Assembly: GCA_020725555.1 (NCBI GenBank)
Contig: DYEU01000018.1
Coordinates: 79,113 to 143,112 of the forward strand
Source of the DNA: Desulfatibacillum sp.
GTDB lineage: Bacteria > Desulfobacterota > Desulfobacteria > Desulfobacterales > SpSt-501
Reading direction: 5' to 3'
DNA length: 64,000 bases
Of the stretch, positions 31-60,743 are shown in pieces. The first letter of the stretch is position 1. Every line of letters starts with the position of its first letter. Under the pieces are notes generated by a model, which was not told the DNA's origin, made no database searches, and was given only the letters and a program-made list of their open reading frames with translations. The position numbers were made by a program, and so were the translations under genes.

Positions 31-981
31 TCAGCGGATGAAATCGTTCGGGTCGTTGGGCCGGTAGTGATCGAGCGCCGGCCGCACCTCGAGGCTCAGC
101 CCGGCTTCCCAGCCGAAGAGCTCGAGGCAGTCCTTTTCGAGTTTTTTTGTGAACAGGCGCATGTTGATCCCCACGGGGCAGGCGCGCTCGCAGGCGCCGC
201 AGTCCGTGCAGCGGCCGGCGCAGTGGTAGGCCCGCAGGAAATGGAAGGTGCGCACGTCGACCGGGTCCTGGCCCTTGCCCACCCACTGCGGCCGCGACTC
301 GTCCACGAAGCAGGTCGGGCAATAGCACAGGGGGCAGGCGTTGCGGCAGGCGTAGCAGCGGATGCACGGGGCGAGCAGGTCCTCGAAGTACTTCCAGCGC
401 TGCTCGGGCGACATCGCCTCGACGGCGCGCACGTCGGCGTAGCGGTCCACGCCCTGCTGCTCCTCGACCGGCTCGCCCGCCAGCTCGTCGTGGATCACCG
501 GGTTGCGGTGGGTGCAGAGGCTGCAGTTGTGCTGGAGCACGTCGGCCTTCTCGAAGGTCCGGGTGAAGCCCTCGCCCTCGGCGGTGATCGCGGTCTCGGT
601 TTCGTGCACGCGCAGGATCTCGCCGGGGCATTTCATCGCGATCTTGCGCTTGTCCGCCATCCCGCGGCAGGGGACCCCGATCACCACGAGCTGCTCGCGG
701 CGGATCTTGTTCTCCAGGATGTGCGTCACGAGGTTGCGCGAATCGCAGCCCTTGGCGACGATCCCGATCTTCTTTTCCTTGCGGTCGGTCACGTAGTTCG
801 CCAGGTTGATGCCGCAGTGGCTGTCCCAGACGAGGAGCCCCGCCTCGGCGGGCTTGCGCACGAAGCAGGGCTCGTTCATCATCGGGATCGTTCCCTGGCG
901 GAAGCCGATCACCATCTCCACCGCCCCGCTGGCAAGCAGCCGCGCGGCGGTCTCGCGGAGGATTTCGGTCGTGCTCGTCAT
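31..981 (-). CDS. FrhB/FdhB-like iron-sulfur protein (F420-hydrogenase beta-like domain plus two [4Fe-4S] ferredoxin motifs), distal gene of the hdrA-mvhD operon
   Basis: 316-aa ORF with Cys motifs CIRCYACRNACPLCYC and CTDCGACERACP. Its ATG lies 1 nt after the mvhD stop. A further minus-strand ATG at position 4 suggests the operon continues off the window. Confidence 0.75.
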   Translation of the reverse strand: MTSTTEILRETAARLLASGAVEMVIGFRQGTIPMMNEPCFVRKPAEAGLLVWDSHCGINLANYVTDRKEKKIGIVAKGCDSRNLVTHILENKIRREQLVVIGVPCRGMADKRKIAMKCPGEILRVHETETAITAEGEGFTRTFEKADVLQHNCSLCTHRNPVIHDELAGEPVEEQQGVDRYADVRAVEAMSPEQRWKYFEDLLAPCIRCYACRNACPLCYCPTCFVDESRPQWVGKGQDPVDVRTFHFLRAYHCAGRCTDCGACERACPVGINMRLFTKKLEKDCLELFGWEAGLSLEVRPALDHYRPNDPNDFIR

Positions 982-982
982 G

Positions 983-1414
983 TCAGGCGACCTCGGCCAG
1001 TGGCTTGATGAAGCGCGTGTTCGGGCCGAGCGCGCGCACGGCCTCGGTGACCTGGGCGGCCACGGTGACGAACTTCGTCGACTCGGCCGAGGAGATCCAG
1101 GAGAACTGGAGGCGTCCGGGCTCGATCCCCATGTGCTCCATCAGGTTCTTGAACAGCGCGAATTTGCGACGGGCGTAGTAATTACCTTCCAGGTAATGGC
1201 ATTCCCCGGGGTGTCACCCGGAGACCCAGACGCCGTCGGCCCCCTCCCGCAGGGCGGCGAGGAAAAAGTTGGGGCTCATGCGGCCGGTGCAGGGAATGCG
1301 GATCACGCGGATGTGGGGCGGGTACTCCATGCGGCCGACCCCGGCGAGGTCCGCGGCCCCGTAACTGCACCAGTTGCACAGGAACGCGACGATCTTGGGC
1401 TCCCAGTCCGACAT
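983..1414 (-). CDS. mvhD: MvhD-like (methyl-viologen-reducing hydrogenase delta subunit family) selenoprotein; in-frame UGA at 1214-1216 read as Sec
   Basis: The last 66 codons of ORF 1214..3721 ([25 protein letters not shown]...ADGVWVSG) stop at TGA 1214-1216. The same frame continues [18 protein letters not shown]...KPLAEVA to TGA 983-985. The joined 143 codons reproduce the MvhD G-C-H-P-G-x-C-H-Y motif with UGA at the first Cys position. Confidence 0.85.
1181..1197 (-). promoter_or_regulatory. candidate bacterial SECIS hairpin for the mvhD UGA
   Basis: RNA AUUACC-UGGAA-GGUAAU (6-bp perfect stem, 5-nt loop) starts 17 nt after the UGA. The loop occupies UGA+23..+27. Confidence 0.55.
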
Positions 1415-1428
1415 CTCGCTGCCTCCTC

Positions 1429-4400
1429 TCATACCGCTTCGCGCAGGCTGAAGATCTGGGCGAAGATCTGGTCGTTGTCGAAGCCTTTCAGGTGGATGGC
1501 CCCCGAGCGGCAGGAGGCCACGCACAGGCCGCAGCCCTTGCACAGGACGGGGTTGATCTGCGCGCGCTCGGCGAAGGGCCCCTTCTCGATCCAGGAGGGG
1601 GCCGAGTAGGGGCAGATCGACACGCACACCCCGCAGCGGCTGCACATCCGCGGGTCCACCTCGGCGACCGTGCCGCTCGTGTAGAGCGTCTTGCGCGCCA
1701 GCAGGGTGACCGCGCGGGAGGCCGCCGCCTGGCCCTGGGCGATCGCCTCGTCGATCGGCTTGGGGTAATGGGCGAGCCCGCAGAGGAAGACCCCGTCGGT
1801 GGCGAACTCCGAGGGGCCGAGCTTGGCGTGCCGCTCGACGAAGAAGCCGTCGGCGTTCAGGGGGACCTTGAAGAACTGGGCGAGGGCCTCGTTCTCCTGC
1901 GGCAGGATCGCCGTCGCCAGGGTCAAGAGATCGGCTTCGAGCTCGAGCTCGCGGCCGAGGATGGGGTCGAAGACGCGGACGAGGAGCCGGCCGCCCTCGA
2001 GGCGCACCTCGGGTTTGCGCTCGCGGGAGAAGCGCACGAAGATCACCCCCAGCTCGCGCGCCTTTTTGTAGAGCAGCTCCCGCTCCCCGTAGGTGCGCAG
2101 GTCCCGGTAGAGAACGAAGACGTTCATCTCCGGGTTCATCTCCTTGAGGTGGATCGCGTTGTCCACGCTGTGGGTGCAGCAGACGCGCGAGCAGTAGGGG
2201 CGCTCGGGCTCCCGGGAGCCCACGCACTGGATGAAGACGGCGCTCGCGAGCCGGCCGAGCGCCGGGTCGCCCTCGAGGATCCTGCGGTCGAGCTCGAGGC
2301 TGGTCAGGATGCGCGGGTCGGTCCCGTACCCGTACTCGCTCGGCCGGTAGGGCCGGCCGCCGGTGGCGAGGATGGCGACCCCGTGCTCGATCACCTGGCT
2401 GCCGCCCGCCCCCTCGAGGGTCGTCTTGAAGTTGCCGACGAAGCCCTCCACCCGGCAGATCGAGGCCCCGCGGTGCACCTGGATCCGGGGGTCGGCCTCG
2501 ACCTCGGCGATCATGGAGGAGAGCAGCTCCGGCACGGGCTCCCCGCGCGCCGTGCGGTAGAGGTTCCGGGCCTGCCCCCCGAGACGGTCTTCCTTCTCGA
2601 CGAGATGGACCGCGTAGCCCTGCCGCGCCAGGCTGCGGGCCGCGGCCATGCCCGCCAGCCCGCCGCCGACGACGAGGGCGCTCTGGTGGATTTCGAGCTC
2701 CGCCTCGCGCAGCGGGGAGAGCAGCGCCGCCTTTTCGACCGCCATGCGCACGAGGTCCTTCGCCTTGCGCGTGGCCAGCTCGGGGGCGTTCTTGTGCACC
2801 CAGGAGTCCTGGTTGCGGATGTTCGCCATCTCGAAGAGGTACTTGTTCAACCCGGCGTTGACGAGCGTCTCCTGGAAGAGCGGCTCGTGGGTCTTCGGCG
2901 TGCAGGCCGCGACCACGACCCGGTTCAGGTTCTTCTCGCGGATGATCTTGGAGATGGTCTCCTGGGTGTCCTGGGAACAGGAATAGAGGTTGTCGGTGGC
3001 GAACTCGACGTAGGGCAGGCTCTTGGCGTACTCGGCGACCGCCGGGACGTCGACGACGCCGGCGATGTTGGTCCCGCAGCGGCAGACGAACACCCCGATC
3101 CGCGGCCGCTCGTTTGCCACGTTCACCTCGGGGACCTTCTCCTTCGTGCGGGTCCGGGTGCCCCGGGCGGGGGCGAGGACCTCGCCGGCGGCCATCGCCG
3201 CCGCGCTCGCGTCGATCACCGACTGGGGGATGTCCTTGGGGCCCTGGAAGGCGCCGCAGACGTAGATGCCCGCGCGCGAGGAGGCGACGGGGGTGAGGCT
3301 CGCGGTGCGGCAGAAGCGCCCCGGGGTGAGTTCGAGACCCAGGCGCCGCGCGAGATCGAGAACCCCCGGGGAGACCTCCATGCCGATCGAGAGCACCACG
3401 AGGTCGAAGACCTCGGTGTGGAGGCTTCCGTCCTCGGCGATGTAGCGCACCTCGAGGTCGTCGGTCGTCCCCACCGGGGTCACCGAGTGCACCCGGCTGC
3501 GGATGAAGCGCACGCCGTGGCGTTCGCGGGCGTCGTCGTAGAAGCGCTCGAATTCCTTGCCGTGGGTGCGCATGTCCATGAAGAAGACCGCGCAGTCGAG
3601 CCCCGGGCCCACGTGCTCCTTGGCGATCACGGCCTCCTTGACCGCGTACATGCAGCAGACCGCGGAGCAGTAAGCGTTGTCGCAGCGGTTGAGGTCGCGC
3701 GAGCCCACGCACTGGAACCAAGCGATCTTCTTCGGGTCCCGGCCGTCCTTGGAGAGCCGCTTCACGTGGCCCTGCGTGGGCCCCGAGGCGGAGAGCATGC
3801 GCTCGAACTCCATGGCGGTCATCACGTTGGGCAGCTTCGCGTACTGGTAGTTGTCATAGCGCGCCGGGTCGAAGGGCACGAACCCCGGGGCGAGCACCAC
3901 CGCGCCCACGCGCACCGTGGAGGTGACCGGCTTCTGGTCGAAATCCACGGCCCCCGTCGGGCAGATCTTCTTGCAGGCGCCGCATTTGCCCTTCTGGAGG
4001 AAGATGCACTCCTCGGGGTCGATGGCGTACTTGAGCGGCACGGCCTGCGGGTACTCCACGTAGGCCGCCTTGCGCTTGGAGAGCCCCATGTTGTAGGTGT
4101 CGACGGTCTTCTTGGGGCATTTCTCGGCGCAGGCGCCGCAGCCGATGCACTTCTCGATGTCGATGTAGCGGGGGTGCTGCAGGAGCTCGACTTCGAAGTC
4201 CCCCGCCTCGCCCCGGATGTCCTGGACCTCGGTGAGCGTTTTCAGCTCGATGTTCAGATGCCGGCCGACCTCGACCAGTTTGGGCGAGATGATTCACATC
4301 GCGCAGTCGCAGGTGGGAAAGGTCTTGTCCAGCTGCGACATGACGCCCCCGATGGAGGGCCCTTTTTCCACGAGGTAGACGTAGTAGCCCGCATCGGCGA

Positions 4401-4473
4401 GATCCAGCGCGGCTTGCATGCCGGCGATCCCGCCGCCGACCACCATGGCCGAACCGATGAGTTCCTTTGGCAT
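1429..4473 (-). CDS. hdrA: large HdrA-like heterodisulfide reductase subunit A flavoprotein (about 1014 codons), selenoprotein; in-frame UGA at 4294-4296 read as Sec
   Basis: ORF 4294..4611 from its Met47 ([28 protein letters not shown] upstream) ends ...[11 protein letters not shown] at TGA 4294-4296. The frame continues [14 protein letters not shown]... straight into ORF 1429..4089. The HdrA signature FPT-x-DC-x-x-C-I-x-x-PK has UGA at the last Cys. There is a second GGGLAGM dinucleotide fold and C-terminal [12 protein letters not shown] / [11 protein letters not shown] motifs. Confidence 0.88.
4261..4278 (-). promoter_or_regulatory. candidate SECIS hairpin for the hdrA UGA
   Basis: RNA CUGGUC-GAGGUC-GGCCGG (6-bp stem including 2 G-U pairs, loop containing GGUC). 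The loop occupies UGA+22..+27, the same distance as in the other two candidates. Confidence 0.35.
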
Positions 4474-13953: not shown

Positions 13954-14670
13954 ATGCTCCTGGAAGGACGGAAGATTTCCAAACGCTTCGGGGGGGTCCA
14001 GGCGTTGAGCGAGGTGGACTTCCACGTGGAGGCGGGATCGATCACCGCCCTCATCGGGCCGAACGGCGCGGGCAAGACCACCCTCTTCAACATCGTCGCC
14101 GGCGCGATCAAGCCCTCCTCGGGGCAGACCGTTTTCGAGGGCCGGGAGATCACCGGGCTGCCGGCGGACGAGATCTGCCGCCGCGGGATCGCCCGCACCT
14201 TCCAGATCGTCCGGCCCTTTGCGACGATGACCTGCCTCGAGAACGTGCTCGTCGCGGCCGTCAACCGCCATCCCCGGCGGCCGCGCGCCGCGCTCGAGCC
14301 CGGTGCACGCGATCTGCTCGCCCAGGTGGGGCTCGCCGATCTCGCCGGCCAGGAGGCGCGGCACCTCAACGTCGTCCAGAAAAAGCTCCTCGAGCTCGCG
14401 CGCGCGCTCGCCACCGAGCCGCGGCTGCTGCTCCTCGACGAGGTGCTCGGGGGGCTGAACACCCAGGAGATCCTGCAGGCGGTGGAGCAGATCCGCCGCC
14501 TGCGCGACCGCGCGGGGATCACGATCCTGTGGATCGAGCACGTCATGGGGGCCATCATGCAGGCGGCCGACCGCGTGATCGTGCTCGACCAGGGCCGGGT
14601 GCTGACCGCGGCCCCGCCGCGCGAGGTGGTGAGCGACCCGCGGGTCATCCGGGCCTACTTGGGGGAATGA
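13954..14670 (+). CDS. livG: ABC transporter ATP-binding protein (LivG-like)
   Basis: From Met25 of ORF 13882..14670: MLLEGRKISKRFGGVQAL, Walker A GPNGAGKTT. GGAGGGGGAG RBS. Confidence 0.9.
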   Translation: MLLEGRKISKRFGGVQALSEVDFHVEAGSITALIGPNGAGKTTLFNIVAGAIKPSSGQTVFEGREITGLPADEICRRGIARTFQIVRPFATMTCLENVLVAAVNRHPRRPRAALEPGARDLLAQVGLADLAGQEARHLNVVQKKLLELARALATEPRLLLLDEVLGGLNTQEILQAVEQIRRLRDRAGITILWIEHVMGAIMQAADRVIVLDQGRVLTAAPPREVVSDPRVIRAYLGE

Positions 14671-53479: not shown

Positions 53480-53850
53480 GCCCGCTGAATCCTCCCCGGC
53501 GGTCGGCCGGGGGCGAATCGTTGCCAACACCGCGGGGCGCACCGCCCCCGAAGCAGCGCACGGGGCAACGGGCCTGGGGTTCCCCCCTCCACGCCGCACC
53601 CCGACCCGACGGTGCAAGGCCGGGCCGTGACACCCCGGGTGTGCGGTTCCTGCAACCGTGGCCGAAGCGGCACACCGCCCCCGGGGTGCGGCCGTTTCAG
53701 GCCGCGTTGAGAGGGGGAAGGGGTGCGCCCGATCGATCGCCCGACCGGCCCGGCGCGTCGGGCCCGGATCCGGGGGACCCGGTGCGCGCTGCACCCCCGG
53801 GGAAAGCCGCCCTCGGCCCCCTCCCCCCGTGACGACAGGAGGCTTATTCC

Positions 53851-54894
53851 ATGTGGCCGCTGCTGCTGACGCTAAACAAGAATCTCTTCACCGCCATCCC
53901 CGCCATGCTGCTGTTGGGGTTCGGCTGCGGGGTCCTCTGCGACCCCGGCCCGCTCAGGCAGGCGATCGTGCCGCTTACGTTCCTGATGGTCTACCCGATG
54001 ATGGTGACCCTGAAGGTGCGCAAGCTGTTCCAGCGCGGCGGCGGCAAGGCCCAGTGGCTCGCGCAGGCCGTCAACTTCGGGTTCATTCCGTTCGCCGCAC
54101 TGGGGATCGGGCGGCTTTTCTTCCCGGAGGAGCCCTACCTGGCCCTCGGCCTTTTGCTGGCGGGCCTGGTGCCCACCAGCGGCATGACGATTTCCTGGAC
54201 CGGTTTCGCCCGCGGCGACGTGGAAGCCGCGGTCAAGATGACGGTCATCGGCCTGATCCTCGGCTCGCTGGCGACGCCCGTGTACCTCAAGCTCCTGATG
54301 GGCGCCGACATCGACATGGACCTGCGGCTGGTGGTTCGCCAGATTCTGCTGATCGTTTTCGTGCCCATGGCCGCCGGTCATCTGACCCAGAGCCTGCTGC
54401 TGCGCCGGTACGGCCGGGAGGCCTTTCAACAACGGCTGGCGCCGCGCTTTCCGGCGCTGTCGACGCTGGGGGTGCTGGGCATCGTCTTCGTCGCCATGGC
54501 CCTGAAGGCCCGCTCCATCCTGCAATCACCGGAAATCCTGCTCTCCCTGTTTGCGCCGCTTCTGGTCCTCTATGCGCTGAATTTCGCGCTCAGCACCTGG
54601 ATCGGGAAACGCCTGCTGCCGCGCGGGGAGGCCATCGCCCTCGTCTACGGGACCGTGATGCGCAACCTGTCGATCGCCCTGGCGCTGGCCATCAACGCCT
54701 TTGGCCCGCAGGGCGCAGCCGCCGCGCTGGTCGTGGCGCTCGCGTATGTCGTGCAGGTGCAGGCGGCGGCCTGGTACGTGAGGTACACCGACCGCATCTT
54801 CGGCACGGCGGAGACCTTCCCGGCCGGGTCCGCGTTGCCGGCCGCGGTCGAAACGGCGGTTGCCGGGGCCGCCGAGGAGGGGAAGGCCCCCTGA
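53851..54894 (+). CDS. ACR3 / bile-acid:Na+ symporter (SBF-like) family transporter
   Basis: 347-aa polytopic protein; LMVYPMMVTLKV...NFGFIPF...GLLLAGLVPTSGMTISWTGFARGD resembles ACR3/BASS core repeats. AGGAGG RBS. Confidence 0.7.
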   Translation: MWPLLLTLNKNLFTAIPAMLLLGFGCGVLCDPGPLRQAIVPLTFLMVYPMMVTLKVRKLFQRGGGKAQWLAQAVNFGFIPFAALGIGRLFFPEEPYLALGLLLAGLVPTSGMTISWTGFARGDVEAAVKMTVIGLILGSLATPVYLKLLMGADIDMDLRLVVRQILLIVFVPMAAGHLTQSLLLRRYGREAFQQRLAPRFPALSTLGVLGIVFVAMALKARSILQSPEILLSLFAPLLVLYALNFALSTWIGKRLLPRGEAIALVYGTVMRNLSIALALAINAFGPQGAAAALVVALAYVVQVQAAAWYVRYTDRIFGTAETFPAGSALPAAVETAVAGAAEEGKAP

Positions 54895-54960: not shown

Positions 54961-57047
54961 ATGGGCGCTTGCACCCGTCACCCCGATCGAGAAACGCGCT
55001 TCCAATGCCTGAAGCACGGCATCTGGATGTGCGAGGAATGCCTGGCCTGCCGCGACCCCGAACTGTACTGCAAGCACCGCTCCGCCTGCCCGATCTGGTT
55101 CATGGCAAAACGCCGCCGGCGCCAGGAGCAGGAGGAACAGGCCGCTTCCGCCGCCCGGCGCGTACACGTCAGGTTCGAACCGGAAGGCAAGACCGCCGAG
55201 GTGCCGGCCGGCGCCACCCTCCTGGAAGCCGCGGCGGCAGGAGGCGTCCACGTGAACGCCTCCTGCAGCGGCAAAGGCCTGTGCGGCAAGTGCAAGCGGG
55301 TGGTGGAATCGGGAGAGCTCGACAGGGAACCGACGGCGCTTCTCCGCGATGCGGAAACGCAAAAGCGCTGCGTGCCGGCCTGCCAGAGCCGGCTGCGGGG
55401 CGACGCCGTGGTCCGCATCCCGCCGGAGGCGATCGAGCGCAAGCTGAAGGTGGCCGGGATGGGCCGGGAAGCCACCTCGCGCCTGAAGGGGCGGGTCTGC
55501 CGGATCGATCCCCTGCTGCGGGAAATCCCGCTCGAACTCCCGCCGCCGACGATCGAAGACGCCGTCAGCGACCTGGACCGTATCAACCGCGCGCTCAAGC
55601 AGCACGGCGGTGACAGCGAGAAGCTTCACGTGGGGCTCACGGTGATGCGGCAACTCGCCGAGGCTGTGCGGGAAGGGCACTGGAAAGTGACCGCGTCGGT
55701 TGTCCGGCACGGCGGCTTCGACGAACTGCGGGAGGTTCGTCCCGGCGACGGCAACGAACCCTGCCTGGGGCTGGCCATCGACGTGGGGACCACGACGATC
55801 GTGGTCTATCTCGTGGACATGGCCGACGGCCGGATTCTTGCGGCCACCTCGGGCCACAACCGTCAGGCGGCCTGCGGCGACGACGTCATCAACCGCATCG
55901 TGTGCGCCGAAACGGAGGGGTGCGCAAGTTGAGCGAGATGGCGCTCGCCACCATCAACGGCCTGATCGGCGAGGCACTCGACAGCGCCGGGGCGCACGTG
56001 CGCCGGGTCAAGAACATCGTCGTGGCCGGCAACACGGTCATGACCCACCTGCTCCTGCAGATCGAACCCCGCTACATCCGCCGCACCCCCTACATCCCCA
56101 CGGTCGCGGAGTTTCCGATCCTCGAGGCCGGAACCATCGGACTCAAGGCCCATCCGGCCGCCGCCGTGTTCGTGATGCCCGGACCGGCCAGCTACGTGGG
56201 CGGCGACATCGTCGCCGGCGTCCTCTCCTCCGGCCTGCACCGCGAAGCCCCGCTCACGCTGTTCATTGACGTGGGGACCAACGGAGAAATCGTCCTCGGC
56301 AACCATGAGTGGATGCTGACCGCCGCCTGCAGCGCCGGACCGGCCTTCGAGGGCGGCGGCATCCGCTGGGGCATGCGCGCCGAAGCGGGGGCGATCGAGG
56401 CCGTGCGCATCCATCCCGAGACCGGGGAGCCGCAGATCCGTACCGTCGGCGGGGAGCCGCCGCGGGGGATCTGCGGCACGGGGATGATCGAGCTGATCGC
56501 GGAAATGCTCGCCGCCGGGATCATCGACCGCAGCGGGGCCTTCTCCGCGGACCGCGCCCACCCCCGGGTCCGCCGGATCCAGGACGAGTGGGCCTACATT
56601 CTGGTCCCCGCCGACCGCTCGCCGGTGGAAGAGGACATCGCCTTCAGCGCCTCCGACCTCCGCAACCTTCTCTACAGCAAGGCCGCCGTCTATGCCGGCC
56701 TGCGGACGCTGCTGCGCGAAGCCGGGCTGGAACCAGCCGCGGTGGAGCGCATCTGGATCGCCGGGGGCTTCGGACAATCCCTGGACGTCGACAAGGCGGT
56801 CCGCGTCGGGCTGCTCCCCGACCTGGAGCGCGGCCGCTTCCGCTATCTCGGAAACAGCACGATCGCCGGGGCCTACCTGTCGCTGCTGCCCGAGGCGTCC
56901 CGGCGGCAAGCGCGGGAGATCTGCCGTGCCATGACCTACCTCGATCTCTCCAGCCATCCCGGCTCTATGGAGGAGTTCACGTCGGCCCTGTTTCTGCCGC
57001 ACACCCACCTGGAGGCGTTTCCCAGCGCGACCCGCGCGGGCGCCTGA
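54961..57047 (+). pseudogene. RACo-type corrinoid-activation ASKHA ATPase (B-box-like Zn finger + 2Fe-2S ferredoxin + DUF4445/ASKHA), interrupted by a -1 frameshift in a G4 run near 55917-55920
   Basis: ORF 54961..55932 ends ...ACGDDVINRIVCAETEG-CAS*. ORF 55902..57047 continues in the -1 frame with ...GGVRKLSEMALATINGLIGEAL...FIDVGTNGEIVLG...CSAGPAFEGGGI...ICGTGMIEL. One extra G in gagGGGGtgc would fuse them into one protein of about 695 aa. Confidence 0.8.
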
Positions 57048-57194: not shown

Positions 57195-57692
57195 TCATCC
57201 GCCGAAGCGACGTTCGAGGGTGGACCCGCAGCCGGGACACCGCAACTTGAAGCACGGAAGGCCCTGATCCTCCTCGCTGCGGTAGCCGCAGCGCTCGCAG
57301 AAGCACCAGCCTGCGGGGTTGGGGCGGGAGGGGGGGGAGAGGGCCGGGGAAGCAGCAACCTTCTCGGCCGCCGGGGCGGCGTGGGCGGGAAAGGCGGGGA
57401 GGTGGTCCCGAATGGCCCCGCGCCGGCCTTCTTCGATCGCGATGCCGACCGCTTCAAGGACGGCCTTGGCGTTCGGGCCGGCGCTTCCGGTGATCACCCG
57501 CTCCACCCCCGCTGCGACCAGTGCCTCCGCGGCGCGGACGCCGGCACCGCCCGAGGCCTTCGCGCCCGGGTTGGGCTCGACGCGAAACGCCCCGCTTGCG
57601 AGATCCACGATCAAAAAATTCCGGCAGCGTCCGAGCGCGGGCTCGATCGGATCCTCGAGCGAACTTCCCTGGGTGGAAAAGGCGATTTTCAC
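57195..57692 (-). CDS. NifX/NifB-type domain protein fused to a C-terminal zinc ribbon
   Basis: GTG start (VKIAFSTQGSSLEDPIEPALGRCRNFLIVD...) after AAGGAGA. ...VITGSAGPNAKAVLEAVGI. Tail CFCERCG...CPGCG. Confidence 0.75.
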   Translation of the reverse strand: MKIAFSTQGSSLEDPIEPALGRCRNFLIVDLASGAFRVEPNPGAKASGGAGVRAAEALVAAGVERVITGSAGPNAKAVLEAVGIAIEEGRRGAIRDHLPAFPAHAAPAAEKVAASPALSPPSRPNPAGWCFCERCGYRSEEDQGLPCFKLRCPGCGSTLERRFGG

Positions 57693-57813
57693 GCGCGTCT
57701 CCTTGGGGCCGGGATGCAACGAACCGCGCCCGGCCCGGGCGCGAGCCCGCCTGGGCAAGGAGCCGGCCGGCGCTCCGCAGGGTGCGCTTCCGCAACCGGC
57801 CGGCCGCCGCGCG

Positions 57814-59133
57814 TCATTTGGCGGACTCCGGGTGAAACACCGCCACCTCCCTCAGGTCGTCTCCCAGGTAAGCCCGCTCGTTGGGGCCGAGGATCCCCAG
57901 CGCCAGGCAAAGGAGCGTCCAGAGGTGAATCACGTGGTAGCCCCCGCCGTAATGTTCGCTCAGTTCATGGATCTGGGCATGGCAGTTGTGGCAACCGGCG
58001 ATGCAGTACTGCGCGCCGGTCGCCCGGATCTGCTCGTCCTTGAGTCGGCCGAACTCGAGGCGCTGGGCCTTGAACCCCGATTGGAGAAACCCCCCGCCGC
58101 CGCCGCAGCAATAGTTGTTGGAGCGGTTGGGCTGCATGTCGATGAAGTTTTCCTCCCCCACCGCCGTCTTGACCACGAAGCGCAGGTCCTCGGCGATCGG
58201 ATCGCCGTAACTCTTGCGGACGATCTGGCAGGGGTCCTGGACCGTGAACTTGATCTTCAGGTCCCGGTTCCAATCGGCGTTGACCTTGAGCCGGCCCTCC
58301 CGGATCCACCGGGCGTAGTATTCGTAGATGTTTTTGACCGTGAACGTGTGCTCGATCTTGAATTTTTTCAGTCCTTCCAGGACCGAAAAGGTGACGTGCC
58401 CTCACTCGGTGTTGAGAAAGACCTTGCACCCCAACTCTTCGGCCTGCCGGGCCGCCGTCGCCGTGATGTGCTTCCAGGCCGCGTCGTCGCCCAGGAACAT
58501 GCAGTAATTCTCGCCACCCCAGCCCTTGGAGCCGTAGGTCCAGTCCGCACCGGCCAGATGCAGCAGCTTCCACAGGGGCACCATTTCGTCGGGTTCGGTC
58601 ACCGGCTCGCGCGAGTTCTGGTTGAGGAAGAATTCGGCCCCCGCCTTGTCAATGGGCGCCTCCATGGCGGCGAATTCCGGCTGCGCCTCGCGGTACTCCG
58701 CCAAGACGTCTTCGACCACGAAGCGGAAGTCCTCGGGCGAGGCGCCCATGGCGCTGCAGCTGTCGTTGCGCAAGGCCATGTCGCACGAACCGCGGATCCC
58801 TTTCGGGCGCTTTTCCCGGGGCCAGGCGGCACGCACGTTGTAGACCAGCCGTGGAATGTCGATTTTCATCGGGCAGACGTAGATGCATCGCTGGCATTGC
58901 GTGCACATCCAGACCCAGTCCGTGGCGAGGATCTCCTCGTCCAGGCCAAGGGCGGCCATGCGCAGAAACTTGCGCGGGTCCAGGCCCTCCAGCCCCGTCG
59001 CCGGGCAACCCGAGGAGCAGGCGCCGCAGGTGAGGCACAGGTTGAGATGGCCGCCTTCCGGGAGAATCTCCCGGACCTTTTCCATGAATGTCGTGCGTCG
59101 TTTTCCCCCCAAGCGAATGACGGTCTCCTCCAT
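57814..59133 (-). CDS. HdrD-like Fe-S oxidoreductase (2x[4Fe-4S] + two CCG domains), selenoprotein; in-frame UGA at 58402-58404 read as Sec
   Basis: The last 243 codons of ORF 58402..60786 (MEETVIRLGG...CLTCGACSSGCP...CTQCQRCIYVCP...KVFLNTE) stop at TGA. The same frame continues GHVTFSVLEGLKKF... into ORF 57814..58176 (NYCCGGGGG, CIAGCHNC). GAGGAGGAG RBS before ATG 59133. Confidence 0.85.
58365..58389 (-). promoter_or_regulatory. strong candidate SECIS hairpin for the hdrD-like UGA
   Basis: RNA UUUUCGGUCC-UGGAA-GGACUGAAAA (10-bp stem with one G-U pair, 5-nt loop) begins 13 nt after the UGA. The loop occupies UGA+23..+27. Confidence 0.65.

Positions 59134-59381: not shown

Positions 59382-60743
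<1,362 letters not shown>

What the first reader, a model, noticed from the sequence alone, without database searches (positions are those of the whole stretch)
58365..58404. All three UGA sites share hairpin geometry; two share the identical apex CCUGGAAGG at the same codon offset
In mvhD (1181-1197) and the hdrD-like gene (58365-58389) the hairpin apex is the same 9-mer, CC-UGGAA-GG. In both genes it encodes Leu-Glu-Gly at codons +8 to +10 after Sec. In hdrA (4261-4278) the candidate loop GAGGUC occupies the same +22..+27 window. Such fixed spacing is what SelB-dependent recoding requires. The shared apex in two unrelated proteins suggests selection on the RNA rather than on the protein.
Basis: seen in the sequence. 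Interest (0 to 1): 0.6.

Follow-up and report, generated by a model that had tools for sequence, protein, structure and literature searches.

The report
Ordinary bacterial selenocysteine insertion hairpins
The three hairpins are real, standard bacterial selenocysteine-insertion signals (SECIS) sitting just after in-frame UGA codons in three already known selenoprotein genes, and the shared 9-base tip is one common version of the published SECIS loop consensus, so the finding is correct but ordinary.

Summary
Three minus-strand genes have an in-frame UGA where homologues have Cys: an HdrD/GlpC-like Fe-S oxidoreductase, mvhD and hdrA. Each UGA is followed by a perfect hairpin with GG at +27/+28, counting the U of UGA as +1. 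Two of the hairpins carry CCUGGAAGG at +24..+32.

The RNA-selection reading is supported.
- Rare codons build the stems.
- In 116 Sec orthologues of the Fe-S gene the helix is kept, with covariation at four pairs. Pair 26-30 is G-C in 56, U-A in 48, G-U in 7.
- Synonymous sites inside the helix are nearly frozen.
- Cys homologues lack Leu-Glu and lack the hairpin.

The exact 9-mer is not required. It occurs in 11 of 113 distinct Fe-S orthologue sequences and 56 of 106 mvhD sequences. The shared rule is CC-N-G-(G/U)-N-N'-GG, which is the published bSECIS pattern N1-G-[G|U]-N-N2.

Spacing is a window, not one value. Related contigs combine FdhA (loop G at +23), MvhD (+27) and an HdrA variant (+31).

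All three selenoprotein families and the SECIS model are already published. Interest is low. By-products: SECIS-driven amino-acid changes, decayed SECIS remnants in Cys homologues, and the same apex in [NiFeSe] hydrogenase genes.

The parts
57814..59133 (-). Gene for the HdrD/GlpC-like Fe-S oxidoreductase selenoprotein: 439 aa, Sec at residue 244 in the motif NTE-U-GH, ending in a genuine UGA stop at 57816..57814.
   Evidence: Translation and coordinates. Pfam finds a 4Fe-4S dicluster plus a CCG domain. NCBIfam gives sub-threshold HmcF/TmcB/DsrK/GlpC similarity. 120 full-length Cys homologues and 116 Sec orthologues were found.
58402..58404 (-). In-frame UGA (Sec codon) of the Fe-S oxidoreductase gene.
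   Evidence: It aligns with Cys in all 120 homologues and with UGA in 116 orthologues.
58365..58389 (-). SECIS hairpin of the Fe-S oxidoreductase gene. The conserved core helix is +19..+26 paired with +30..+37 (58386..58368). The loop G27 G28 A29 is at 58378..58376. The 9-mer CCUGGAAGG is at 58381..58373.
   Evidence: Fold. Covariation on 117 sequences. A covariance model built only from other organisms' hairpins hits this site at 34.6 bits, E = 1e-7. Rare codons TTT, GAA, GGA, AAA and AAA build the stem.
983..1414 (-). mvhD gene (FlpD/VhuD family): 143 aa, Sec at residue 67 in G-U-HPGECHY.
   Evidence: Pfam PF02662 at E = 1.8e-52.
1214..1216 (-). In-frame UGA (Sec codon) of mvhD.
   Evidence: It aligns with Cys in 22 Cys MvhD homologues and with UGA in about 120 metagenomic orthologues.
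1181..1197 (-). SECIS hairpin of mvhD: AUUACCU-GGA-AGGUAAU, with loop G27 G28 A29 at 1190..1188 and the 9-mer at 1193..1185.
   Evidence: Fold. The rare codons CAT (0.13), GAA (0.17), GGT (0.03) and AAT (0.02) are needed for the stem. GGT and AAT are invariant in 102 orthologues. Pair 26-30 covaries.
1429..4473 (-). hdrA gene: 1014 aa, Sec at residue 60 in CDCAM-U-IISPK.
   Evidence: 55 Sec orthologues were found in the fetched loci.
4294..4296 (-). In-frame UGA (Sec codon) of hdrA.
   Evidence: It aligns with Cys in 3 Cys HdrA and with UGA in 55 Sec HdrA sequences.
4261..4278 (-). SECIS hairpin of hdrA: CUGGUCG-AGGU-CGGCCGG, with G27 G28 at 4270..4269.
   Evidence: Fold. About 35 orthologues carry the identical helix; two more differ only at its last base. 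Cys HdrA with the same peptide KLVECGRH uses other codons and pairs at only 4 of 7 positions.

Best explanation
The three hairpins are canonical bacterial selenocysteine insertion sequences (bSECIS). Each lies in the coding region just 3' of an in-frame UGA.

[quoted passage not shown] The ribosome unwinds the lower stem as it approaches. This tethers SelB so that the UGA in the A site is read as Sec instead of stop.

The three genes are known selenoprotein families: Fe-S oxidoreductase-like with a 'UGH' motif, MvhD/VhuD, and HdrA. All three also end in ordinary UGA stops with no such hairpin behind them.

The identical 9-mer in two genes has three causes:
- Both hairpins obey the same apex rule, C24 C25 N26 G27 (G/U)28 N29 N'30 G31 G32.
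- Both proteins have a conserved Gly codon at +10. This fixes G31 G32 and so forces C24 C25.
- The free positions (pair 26-30 and N29) happen to carry the same allele, U-A and A. That allele is the major one in mvhD and a minor one in the Fe-S gene.

The SECIS overrides protein preference: Leu-Glu at +8/+9 is imposed by the RNA.

Shown here: the structure, its conservation and covariation, the codon bias, and its loss in Cys forms. Inferred: SelB binding and actual Sec insertion.
For: Structure and position.

Fit to the published bSECIS model (PMC13188914, Fig. 2A, read):
- Loops are 3-4 nt and stems 7-11 bp.
- A loop G is followed by G.
- Spacing from UGA to loop is 22-23 nt, inside the 16-37 nt range.

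Rare codons build the stems. The geometry is rare in the background (0.33%) and in synonymous resamples (0-3.4%).

Fe-S gene:
- 116 Sec orthologues were found, from loci of 32-70% G+C.
- 88.6% of cells are paired, against 31-50% when the 3' partners are slid.
- Four pairs covary. Pair 26-30 is GC 56, UA 48, GU 7, AU 1, UG 1. Pair 19-37 is UA 91, GC 13.
- Synonymous entropy is about 0-0.4 bit at codons +7, +8 and +10 to +13, where the varying codon +9 carries the covarying position 30. Outside the helix it is mostly about 1-2 bits.

mvhD: about 120 Sec orthologues were found. Pair 26-30 is U-A, A-U, G-U or U-G, with a pentaloop when unpaired.

hdrA: 55 Sec orthologues were found, with compensatory variants between classes.

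Cys homologues lack both Leu-Glu and the hairpin.

The same apex, CCUGGA(U/C)GG at +24..+32, occurs in five [NiFeSe] hydrogenase Sec genes but not in their Cys homologues.

All three families are listed as known selenoproteins.
Against: - There is no direct evidence of Sec insertion or SelB binding.
- No selA, selB, selC or selD was identified, and the window holds no tRNA.
- Rfam has no matching family.
- Folding energies are not better than shuffled or synonymous controls.
- The mvhD core hairpin alone is only about -5 kcal/mol.
- Most hdrA class-1 helices are identical, so that site has no covariation within its own class.
- A covariance model built from the Fe-S hairpins does not detect the other two sites. 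What the families share is only a short consensus.
Confidence: 0.93

Rival explanations
1. Protein-level constraint plus chance. Leu-Glu-Gly is needed by both proteins, and the hairpins are incidental products of codon choice.
For: Gly at +10 is conserved in Cys homologues of all three families. One Cys homologue of the Fe-S protein (P0076, locus L121) encodes Leu-Glu-Gly and keeps CCTGGAAGG. MFE z-scores are unremarkable.
Against: - 119 of 120 Cys Fe-S homologues lack Leu-Glu-Gly and mostly have Trp at +8.
- All 22 Cys MvhD have KN, IN, NT, IT, MH, KS or VS at +8/+9, never LE.
- The stems need strongly disfavoured codons: GGT 0.03, AAT 0.02, GGA 0.05.
- Synonymous sites are frozen only inside the helices.
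- Compensatory pair changes alter the amino acids themselves, for example Leu/Arg at +8, and Ser/Ala at +6 together with Lys/Gln at +12.
- L121 has lost the lower stem.
Confidence: 0.02
2. The hairpins are real, selected RNA structures, but they serve something other than SelB recruitment. Candidates are ribosome pausing, mRNA stabilisation or binding of another factor.
For: No binding or recoding assay exists for these sequences. Stable coding-region hairpins can slow ribosomes.
Against: The structures occur only behind UGA alleles and decay in Cys alleles. They match every criterion of the published SECIS model, including the loop G-(G/U). Without recoding, all three essential redox proteins would be truncated. 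No terminator-like feature is predicted at the site.
Confidence: 0.03
3. The identical 9-mer results from recent sequence exchange (gene conversion or shared descent) between the two loci.
For: There is exact identity over 9 nt at the same offset within one genome.
Against: Identity stops at the 9-mer. The flanking stems, UUUUCGGU versus CAUUA, are unrelated. Each family carries its own stem across more than 100 genomes. The same apex recurs in [NiFeSe] hydrogenase genes. In the Fe-S family the allele is shared with 10 orthologue sequences from other genomes (11 of 113).
Confidence: 0.01

Closest known systems
Bacterial SECIS consensus model (bSECISearch; Zhang and Gladyshev 2005, as summarised in PMC13188914, Fig. 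2A)
   Same: - A stem-loop immediately 3' of the Sec UGA, inside the coding region.
- A 3-9 nt apical loop on a 4-16 bp stem.
- A loop G followed by G/U within the pattern N1-G-[G|U]-N-N2, where N1 and N2 pair. Here that is N26-G27-K28-N29-N'30.
- A spacing of 16-37 nt; here it is 22-23 nt.
- MFE of -7.5 kcal/mol or lower.
   Different: Nothing essential differs. These families add two C-G pairs directly under the closing pair (CC...GG), and a very strict position of the loop G at +27 in the window's three genes.
E. coli fdhF/fdnG SECIS (from my own knowledge: Huttenhofer, Bock and co-workers; the SelB-SECIS structures from Moorella thermoacetica)
   Same: A coding-region hairpin whose apical loop presents G followed by U/G to the C-terminal winged-helix domains of SelB. 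Its distance from the UGA matters.
   Different: - E. coli has a GGUC tetraloop with G23/U24 and a bulged U17.
- Here two sites have a GGA triloop (or a UGGAA pentaloop) and one has AGGU. There is no bulge, and the loop G sits 4 nt further downstream, at +27.
- FdhA genes of relatives keep the E. coli-like +23 G-U/G loop.
Known selenoprotein families: Fe-S oxidoreductase-like (GlpC-like, 'UGH' motif), MvhD/VhuD (PF02662) and HdrA. This includes the four-selenoprotein operon frhA-frhD-hdrA-glpC described for Deltaproteobacteria (PMC13188914).
   Same: The Sec positions and motifs are the same (U-G-H; G-U-H-x-G-[DE]-C-H-Y; C-x-M-U-I). hdrA and mvhD are adjacent. Relatives carry up to four of these Sec genes on one contig (L202).
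   Different: In this window the Fe-S oxidoreductase gene lies about 53 kb from hdrA-mvhD, downstream of a sigma-54 activator gene. No [NiFeSe] hydrogenase gene with Sec was seen in the window.

Membership tests
Bacterial SECIS (bSECIS consensus model) | Stem-loop located directly downstream of an in-frame UGA, within the coding sequence | tested here: met
   All three hairpins start 15-19 nt after the UGA, inside open, coding-like frames.
Bacterial SECIS (bSECIS consensus model) | Apical loop of 3-9 nt on an upper stem of 4-16 bp | tested here: met
   Loops are 3, 3 and 4 nt; perfect stems are 11, 7 and 7 bp.
Bacterial SECIS (bSECIS consensus model) | G in the first two loop positions, usually N1-G-[G|U]-N-N2 with N1 and N2 paired | tested here: met
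   The two 9-mer sites read U26-G27-G28-A29-A30; hdrA reads A26-G27-G28-U29. Across orthologues G27 is invariant, position 28 is G or U, and pair 26-30 covaries.
Bacterial SECIS (bSECIS consensus model) | 16-37 nt between the UGA and the apical loop | tested here: met
   The spacing is 23, 23 and 22 nt.
Bacterial SECIS (bSECIS consensus model) | MFE of -7.5 kcal/mol or lower | tested here: met
   Segment +10..+48 folds at -13.2 (Fe-S gene), -10.7 (mvhD, including outer pairs) and -10.2 (hdrA) kcal/mol. The mvhD core hairpin alone is only about -5.1, so that site passes only with its outer pairs.
Bacterial SECIS (bSECIS consensus model) | UGA aligns with Cys in homologues; the structure is conserved in Sec orthologues and absent from Cys homologues | tested here: met
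Bacterial SECIS (bSECIS consensus model) | Binds SelB and directs Sec insertion; the genome encodes selA, selB, selC and selD | not testable with these tools
The window has no tRNA gene, and the source genome could not be identified.
E. coli fdhF-type SECIS | GGUC tetraloop with G23/U24, a bulged U17, and an 11-nt spacer | tested here: not met
   The loops are GGA, GGA and AGGU with G at +27, and there is no bulge. This is the same kind of element, not the E. coli subtype.
Rfam RNA families (any, including SECIS models) | Covariance-model match | tested here: not met
   No match at the gathering threshold over the whole window, and none at E = 10 or lower around the three sites.
Fe-S oxidoreductase-like selenoprotein ('UGH' family) | U-G-H motif in a protein with a 4Fe-4S dicluster plus a CCG domain | tested here: met
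   The motif NTE-U-GH is present. Pfam finds Fer4_8/Fer4_17 and CCG. The family and its motif are listed in PMC13188914. The window protein is 81-82% identical to Sec orthologues, against 75% for the best Cys homologue.
MvhD/VhuD selenoprotein | FlpD domain with Sec at the first Cys of G-C-x-x-G-[DE]-C-H-[YF] | tested here: met
   PF02662 at E = 1.8e-52. The motif reads G-U-HPGECHY.
HdrA selenoprotein | HdrA flavoprotein with Sec in D-C-x-M-U-I-[IL]-S-P-K | tested here: met
   The motif reads CDCAM-U-IISPK. Domains. 55 Sec orthologues were found.

The most novel reading that the evidence does not exclude
The genes of the Hdr/Mvh/[NiFeSe]-hydrogenase electron-bifurcation module may share a module-specific SECIS form. 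These are the Fe-S oxidoreductase, MvhD, the [NiFeSe] hydrogenase large subunit and, more loosely, HdrA.

The shared form is the apex CC-UGGAN-GG at +24..+32, built on Leu(+8) and a pre-existing conserved Gly(+10) codon. It differs from the +23 loop of FdhA in the same genomes.

The operon is proposed in the literature to have moved between archaea and Deltaproteobacteria, and archaeal SECIS elements lie in the 3'-UTR. If that is right, each coding-region SECIS would have arisen anew in bacteria. All would then have converged on one solution, seeded by a Gly codon ten codons after the redox Cys.
Probability: 0.2. Interest if true: 0.45.

Novelty: already known. Interest (0 to 1): 0.2.

Why it matters
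**Annotation.** These three UGAs are Sec codons. Automatic gene callers will split or truncate hdrA, mvhD and the Fe-S oxidoreductase gene here. All three also end in true UGA stops.

**A clear teaching example.** The data show how a coding-region RNA signal overrides protein sequence.
- A Trp that is conserved in Cys homologues becomes Leu or Arg.
- Ser/Ala at +6 covaries with Lys/Gln at +12, purely to keep base pairs.

**What it does not do.** It does not change what is known about selenocysteine recoding.

Tried and rejected
- **Rfam.** I scanned at the gathering threshold over the whole window and at E = 10 or lower around the sites. Nothing matched. Short bacterial SECIS hairpins matched no Rfam model here.
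- **Folding-energy tests.** I compared against dinucleotide shuffles and synonymous-codon resamples. Neither was significant, because 70% G+C sequence folds about as well by chance. I replaced this with a geometry-specific test.
- **Cross-family covariance model.** Model R1, built from 116 Fe-S hairpins of other organisms, finds the window's own site at 34.6 bits. It does not find the mvhD or hdrA sites at E = 10 or lower. A single-family 'genome-specific SECIS model' does not transfer.
- **Other in-frame UGAs.** The sites at 54892 and 12930 are just adjacent genes in the same frame. TGAs with hairpins at 53699 and 38905 are not inside coding frames.
- **Source genome.** Exact-protein look-ups of two window proteins found nothing on record.
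- **Terminator reading.** No terminator is predicted at the site.

Full report
**1. What is in the window**

The window is about 70% G+C. Numbering below counts the U of UGA as +1. Three minus-strand genes are interrupted by an in-frame UGA:
- An HdrD/GlpC-like Fe-S protein: 59133..57814, 439 aa, UGA at 58404..58402, motif NTE-U-GH.
- mvhD: 1414..983, 143 aa, UGA at 1216..1214, motif G-U-HPGECHY.
- hdrA: 4473..1429, 1014 aa, UGA at 4296..4294, motif CDCAM-U-IISPK.

Pfam assigns a 4Fe-4S dicluster plus CCG domain, FlpD, and flavoprotein/ferredoxin domains respectively. All three genes also end in genuine UGA stops.

I scanned every in-frame TGA with coding-like sequence on both sides. That scan found only these three Sec candidates. 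Two other hits are adjacent genes in the same frame.

**2. The observation**

- The Fe-S gene has an 11-bp helix, +16..+26 with +30..+40, and loop G27 G28 A29.
- mvhD has a 7-bp helix, +20..+26 with +30..+36, and the same loop.
- hdrA has a 7-bp helix, +19..+25 with +30..+36, and loop A26 G27 G28 U29.

So GG sits at +27/+28 in all three. CCUGGAAGG occupies +24..+32 in two of them, where it forms part of Leu(+8)-Glu(+9)-Gly(+10).

**3. Is it more than chance?**

Folding energies do not help. Shuffled or synonymously recoded 70% G+C sequence folds about as well.

A structure-specific test does help. I defined the geometry as at least 7 perfect pairs closing a 3-6 nt loop with GG at +27/+28.
- It occurs at 0.33% of 10,498 codon positions in the window's coding ORFs.
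- Synonymous resampling of the three peptides reproduces it in 1.2%, 0% and 3.4% of trials.
- This definition was chosen after seeing the data, so the numbers are indicative only.

The stems are built from codons this genome avoids:
- mvhD uses CAT 0.13, GAA 0.17, GGT 0.03 and AAT 0.02.
- The Fe-S gene uses TTT 0.12, GAA 0.17, GGA 0.05 and AAA 0.14 twice.

**4. Orthologues of the Fe-S gene**

I scanned the genome collection with a DNA pattern for N/T-E-UGA-G-H-x-[ST]-[FY]. Of the 120 hits, 116 are true Sec orthologues, almost all from Desulfobacterales and Desulfobulbales. Their loci range from 32 to 70% G+C.

The hairpin is present in all of them. On the 117-sequence alignment:
- 88.6% of cells are paired, against 31-50% when the 3' partners are slid by 1-3 columns.
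- Pair 26-30 is G-C 56, U-A 48, G-U 7, A-U 1, U-G 1.
- Pair 19-37 is U-A 91, G-C 13.
- Pair 21-35 is A-U 88, G-U 17, U-A 5, G-C 3.
- Pair 22-34 is G-C 104, A-U 2.

These compensatory changes alter amino acids. Leu(CUG)+GCA alternates with Arg(CGG)+GCC. Ser(+6) with Lys(+12) alternates with Ala(+6) with Gln(+12).

Synonymous entropy is about 0-0.4 bit at codons +7, +8 and +10 to +13. The varying codon +9 carries the covarying position 30. Outside the helix the entropy is mostly about 1-2 bits.

A covariance model built only from the other organisms' hairpins recovers the window site at 34.6 bits, E = 1e-7.

**5. Cys homologues of the Fe-S gene**

All 120 best full-length homologues have Cys at the Sec position. 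At +8 they mostly have Trp, +9 is variable, and only one (P0076) has Leu-Glu-Gly. I read the DNA of three Cys relatives:
- L121 (P0076) still carries TCAGTCCTGGAAGG, but its 3' strand has decayed to 6 of 8 pairs.
- L122 and L124 keep 4 of 8 pairs.

These look like SECIS remnants. It does not support protein-only constraint.

**6. mvhD**

Of 123 distinct Sec-mvhD sequences, 106 share the stem CAUUACC/GGUAAU.

Among 102 of these, GGT and AAT are invariant. Gly codons outside the helix, by contrast, show 1.4-1.9 bits of entropy.

Pair 26-30 is U-A 60, A-U 12, U-G 4 or G-U 1. Where it is unpaired (U-C 16, U-U 13) the loop becomes a pentaloop. The loop is GGA, GUA, GUC or GGG.

The 22 Cys MvhD homologues found in the same loci encode KN, IN, NT, IT, MH, KS or VS at +8/+9. 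None encodes LE, and none has the hairpin.

**7. hdrA**

I found 55 Sec orthologues.
- The window's type, CUGGUCG-AGGU-CGGCCGG, is identical through the helix in about 35 of them, and two more differ only at its last base.
- Other classes place a GGUC(G) loop at +31..+35, with compensatory stems (GGAUGUC/GACAUCC versus GGAGGCC/GGUCUCC).
- Another class places a GGU loop at +27.
- Cys HdrA with the same peptide (KLVECGRH) uses different codons and pairs at only 4 of 7 positions.

**8. What is actually shared**

The exact 9-mer is present in 11 of 113 Fe-S and 56 of 106 mvhD orthologue sequences. The common rule is C24 C25 N26 G27 (G/U)28 N29 N'30 G31 G32.

This is the published bSECIS consensus. 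That model has:
- a loop of 3-9 nt and a stem of 4-16 bp;
- the pattern N1-G-[G|U]-N-N2 with N1 and N2 paired;
- 16-37 nt from the UGA to the loop;
- MFE of -7.5 kcal/mol or lower.

I read it in PMC13188914, Fig. 2A. All three window sites meet all four criteria. The same review lists Fe-S oxidoreductase-like ('UGH'), MvhD/VhuD and HdrA as known selenoprotein families. It also describes a four-selenoprotein operon in Deltaproteobacteria. I saw that operon in L202.

Gly(+10) is conserved in the Cys homologues of all three families. So G31 G32, and through pairing C24 C25, are partly fixed by the protein. The remaining identity, U26-A30 and A29, is a shared allele.

**9. Spacing**

Relatives show that one SelB serves several offsets.
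- L140 and similar contigs combine FdhA with MvhD and HdrA. FdhA has a 9-bp stem and loop G23-(U/G)24-C25, as in E. coli. MvhD and HdrA have the loop G at +27.
- L210 combines an HdrA variant with its loop at +31 with MvhD and [NiFeSe] hydrogenase at +27.

So 'fixed spacing' is a permitted window, not a single value.

**10. Further family**

Five [NiFeSe] hydrogenase large-subunit genes (DP-U-xSCATH-[RC]-L-D-G) carry CCUGGA(U/C)GG at +24..+32. Their Cys homologues encode L-P-G or I-D-P at these positions, with other codons and no hairpin. This supports an RNA-level apex motif that recurs in unrelated proteins.

**11. Verdict**

These are canonical bacterial SECIS elements in known selenoprotein genes. 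SelB binding and Sec insertion are inferred from the established mechanism, not shown. No Sec machinery gene or tRNA was seen in the window, and the source genome could not be identified.

The finding is already known in kind, and interest is low. The by-products are modest:
- RNA-driven amino-acid covariation.
- Candidate Sec-to-Cys remnants in a family where the review says such reversions are rarely documented.
- A possibly module-specific SECIS form.

Noticed in passing
L121:201-1514 (Cys homologue P0076); also L122 and L124: Cys-containing homologues of the Fe-S oxidoreductase keep parts of the SECIS. L121 has TCAGTCCTGGAAGG with a decayed 3' strand and 6 of 8 pairs. L122 keeps CGGGCTGG. 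They look like SECIS remnants of Sec-to-Cys reversions. The review PMC13188914 says such reversions are rarely documented in bacteria.
   Followed up: partly
L135, L164, L186 (two Sec-hdrA each); L210; L140: Single contigs carry Sec genes whose SECIS loop G sits at +23 (FdhA), +27 (MvhD, HdrA class 1, [NiFeSe] hydrogenase) or +31 (HdrA class 2, GGUC loop). One SelB therefore tolerates at least an 8-nt range of spacing.
   Followed up: partly
L181:7495, L196:4377, L202:3093, L210:6050, L225:2891 (start of the UGA; L196 counted from 0): [NiFeSe] hydrogenase large-subunit genes (DP-U-xSCATH-[RC]-L-D-G) have the apex CCUGGA(U/C)GG at +24..+32, with Leu+8 and Gly+10. This is a third unrelated family with the same apex and offset. 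L202 holds four selenoprotein genes together.
   Followed up: partly
window 58375-58377, 1185-1187 and 4265-4267 (codon +10 of each Sec gene): All three selenoproteins have Gly exactly ten codons after Sec, and the Gly is also conserved in most Cys homologues. Its GG forms the first two bases of the 3' strand of the helix. In HdrA class 2 it forms the loop GG instead. It may be a seed for SECIS evolution.
   Followed up: no
Alignment A1 columns 19/37 and 26/30 (window 58386/58368 and 58379/58375): RNA pairing drives correlated amino-acid changes in the Fe-S protein. Ser/Ala at +6 changes with Lys/Gln at +12. Leu/Arg at +8 changes with the third base of the Ala codon at +9. The Trp(+8) that is conserved in Cys forms is absent from the 116 Sec orthologues and the window gene.
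   Followed up: yes
L129, L174, L183, L193, L185, L176, L207, L208 (Sec-mvhD, second class): A minority of Sec-mvhD genes (CHY-[GVS]-S-GN) use a different hairpin, GCCACUA-U(G/U)(G/U/C)-UAGUGGC. Its loop lies at +24..+26 instead of +27..+29.
   Followed up: no
window 3243-3251 (+) and 13959-13967 (+): There are two further copies of CCTGGAAGG with no UGA context. One lies antisense within hdrA. In total the 9-mer occurs 4 times against 0.93 expected.
   Followed up: no
window 57195-57758 (-), 59382-60743 (-), 55902-57047 (+), 31-981 (-): Gene context:
- A sigma-54-dependent activator gene lies directly upstream of the Fe-S selenoprotein gene.
- A 187-aa ORF with no NCBIfam match and a C-terminal Cys-rich tail lies downstream of it.
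- An AcsV-like corrinoid activation gene is nearby.
- A Cys-rich ORF with only weak Fe-S-protein (4Fe-4S ferredoxin-type) matches follows mvhD.
   Followed up: partly
window 57814-57816, 983-985, 1429-1431: All three selenoprotein genes terminate with UGA. The same codon therefore means Sec and stop within one mRNA, and the only distinguishing feature seen is the hairpin.
   Followed up: partly
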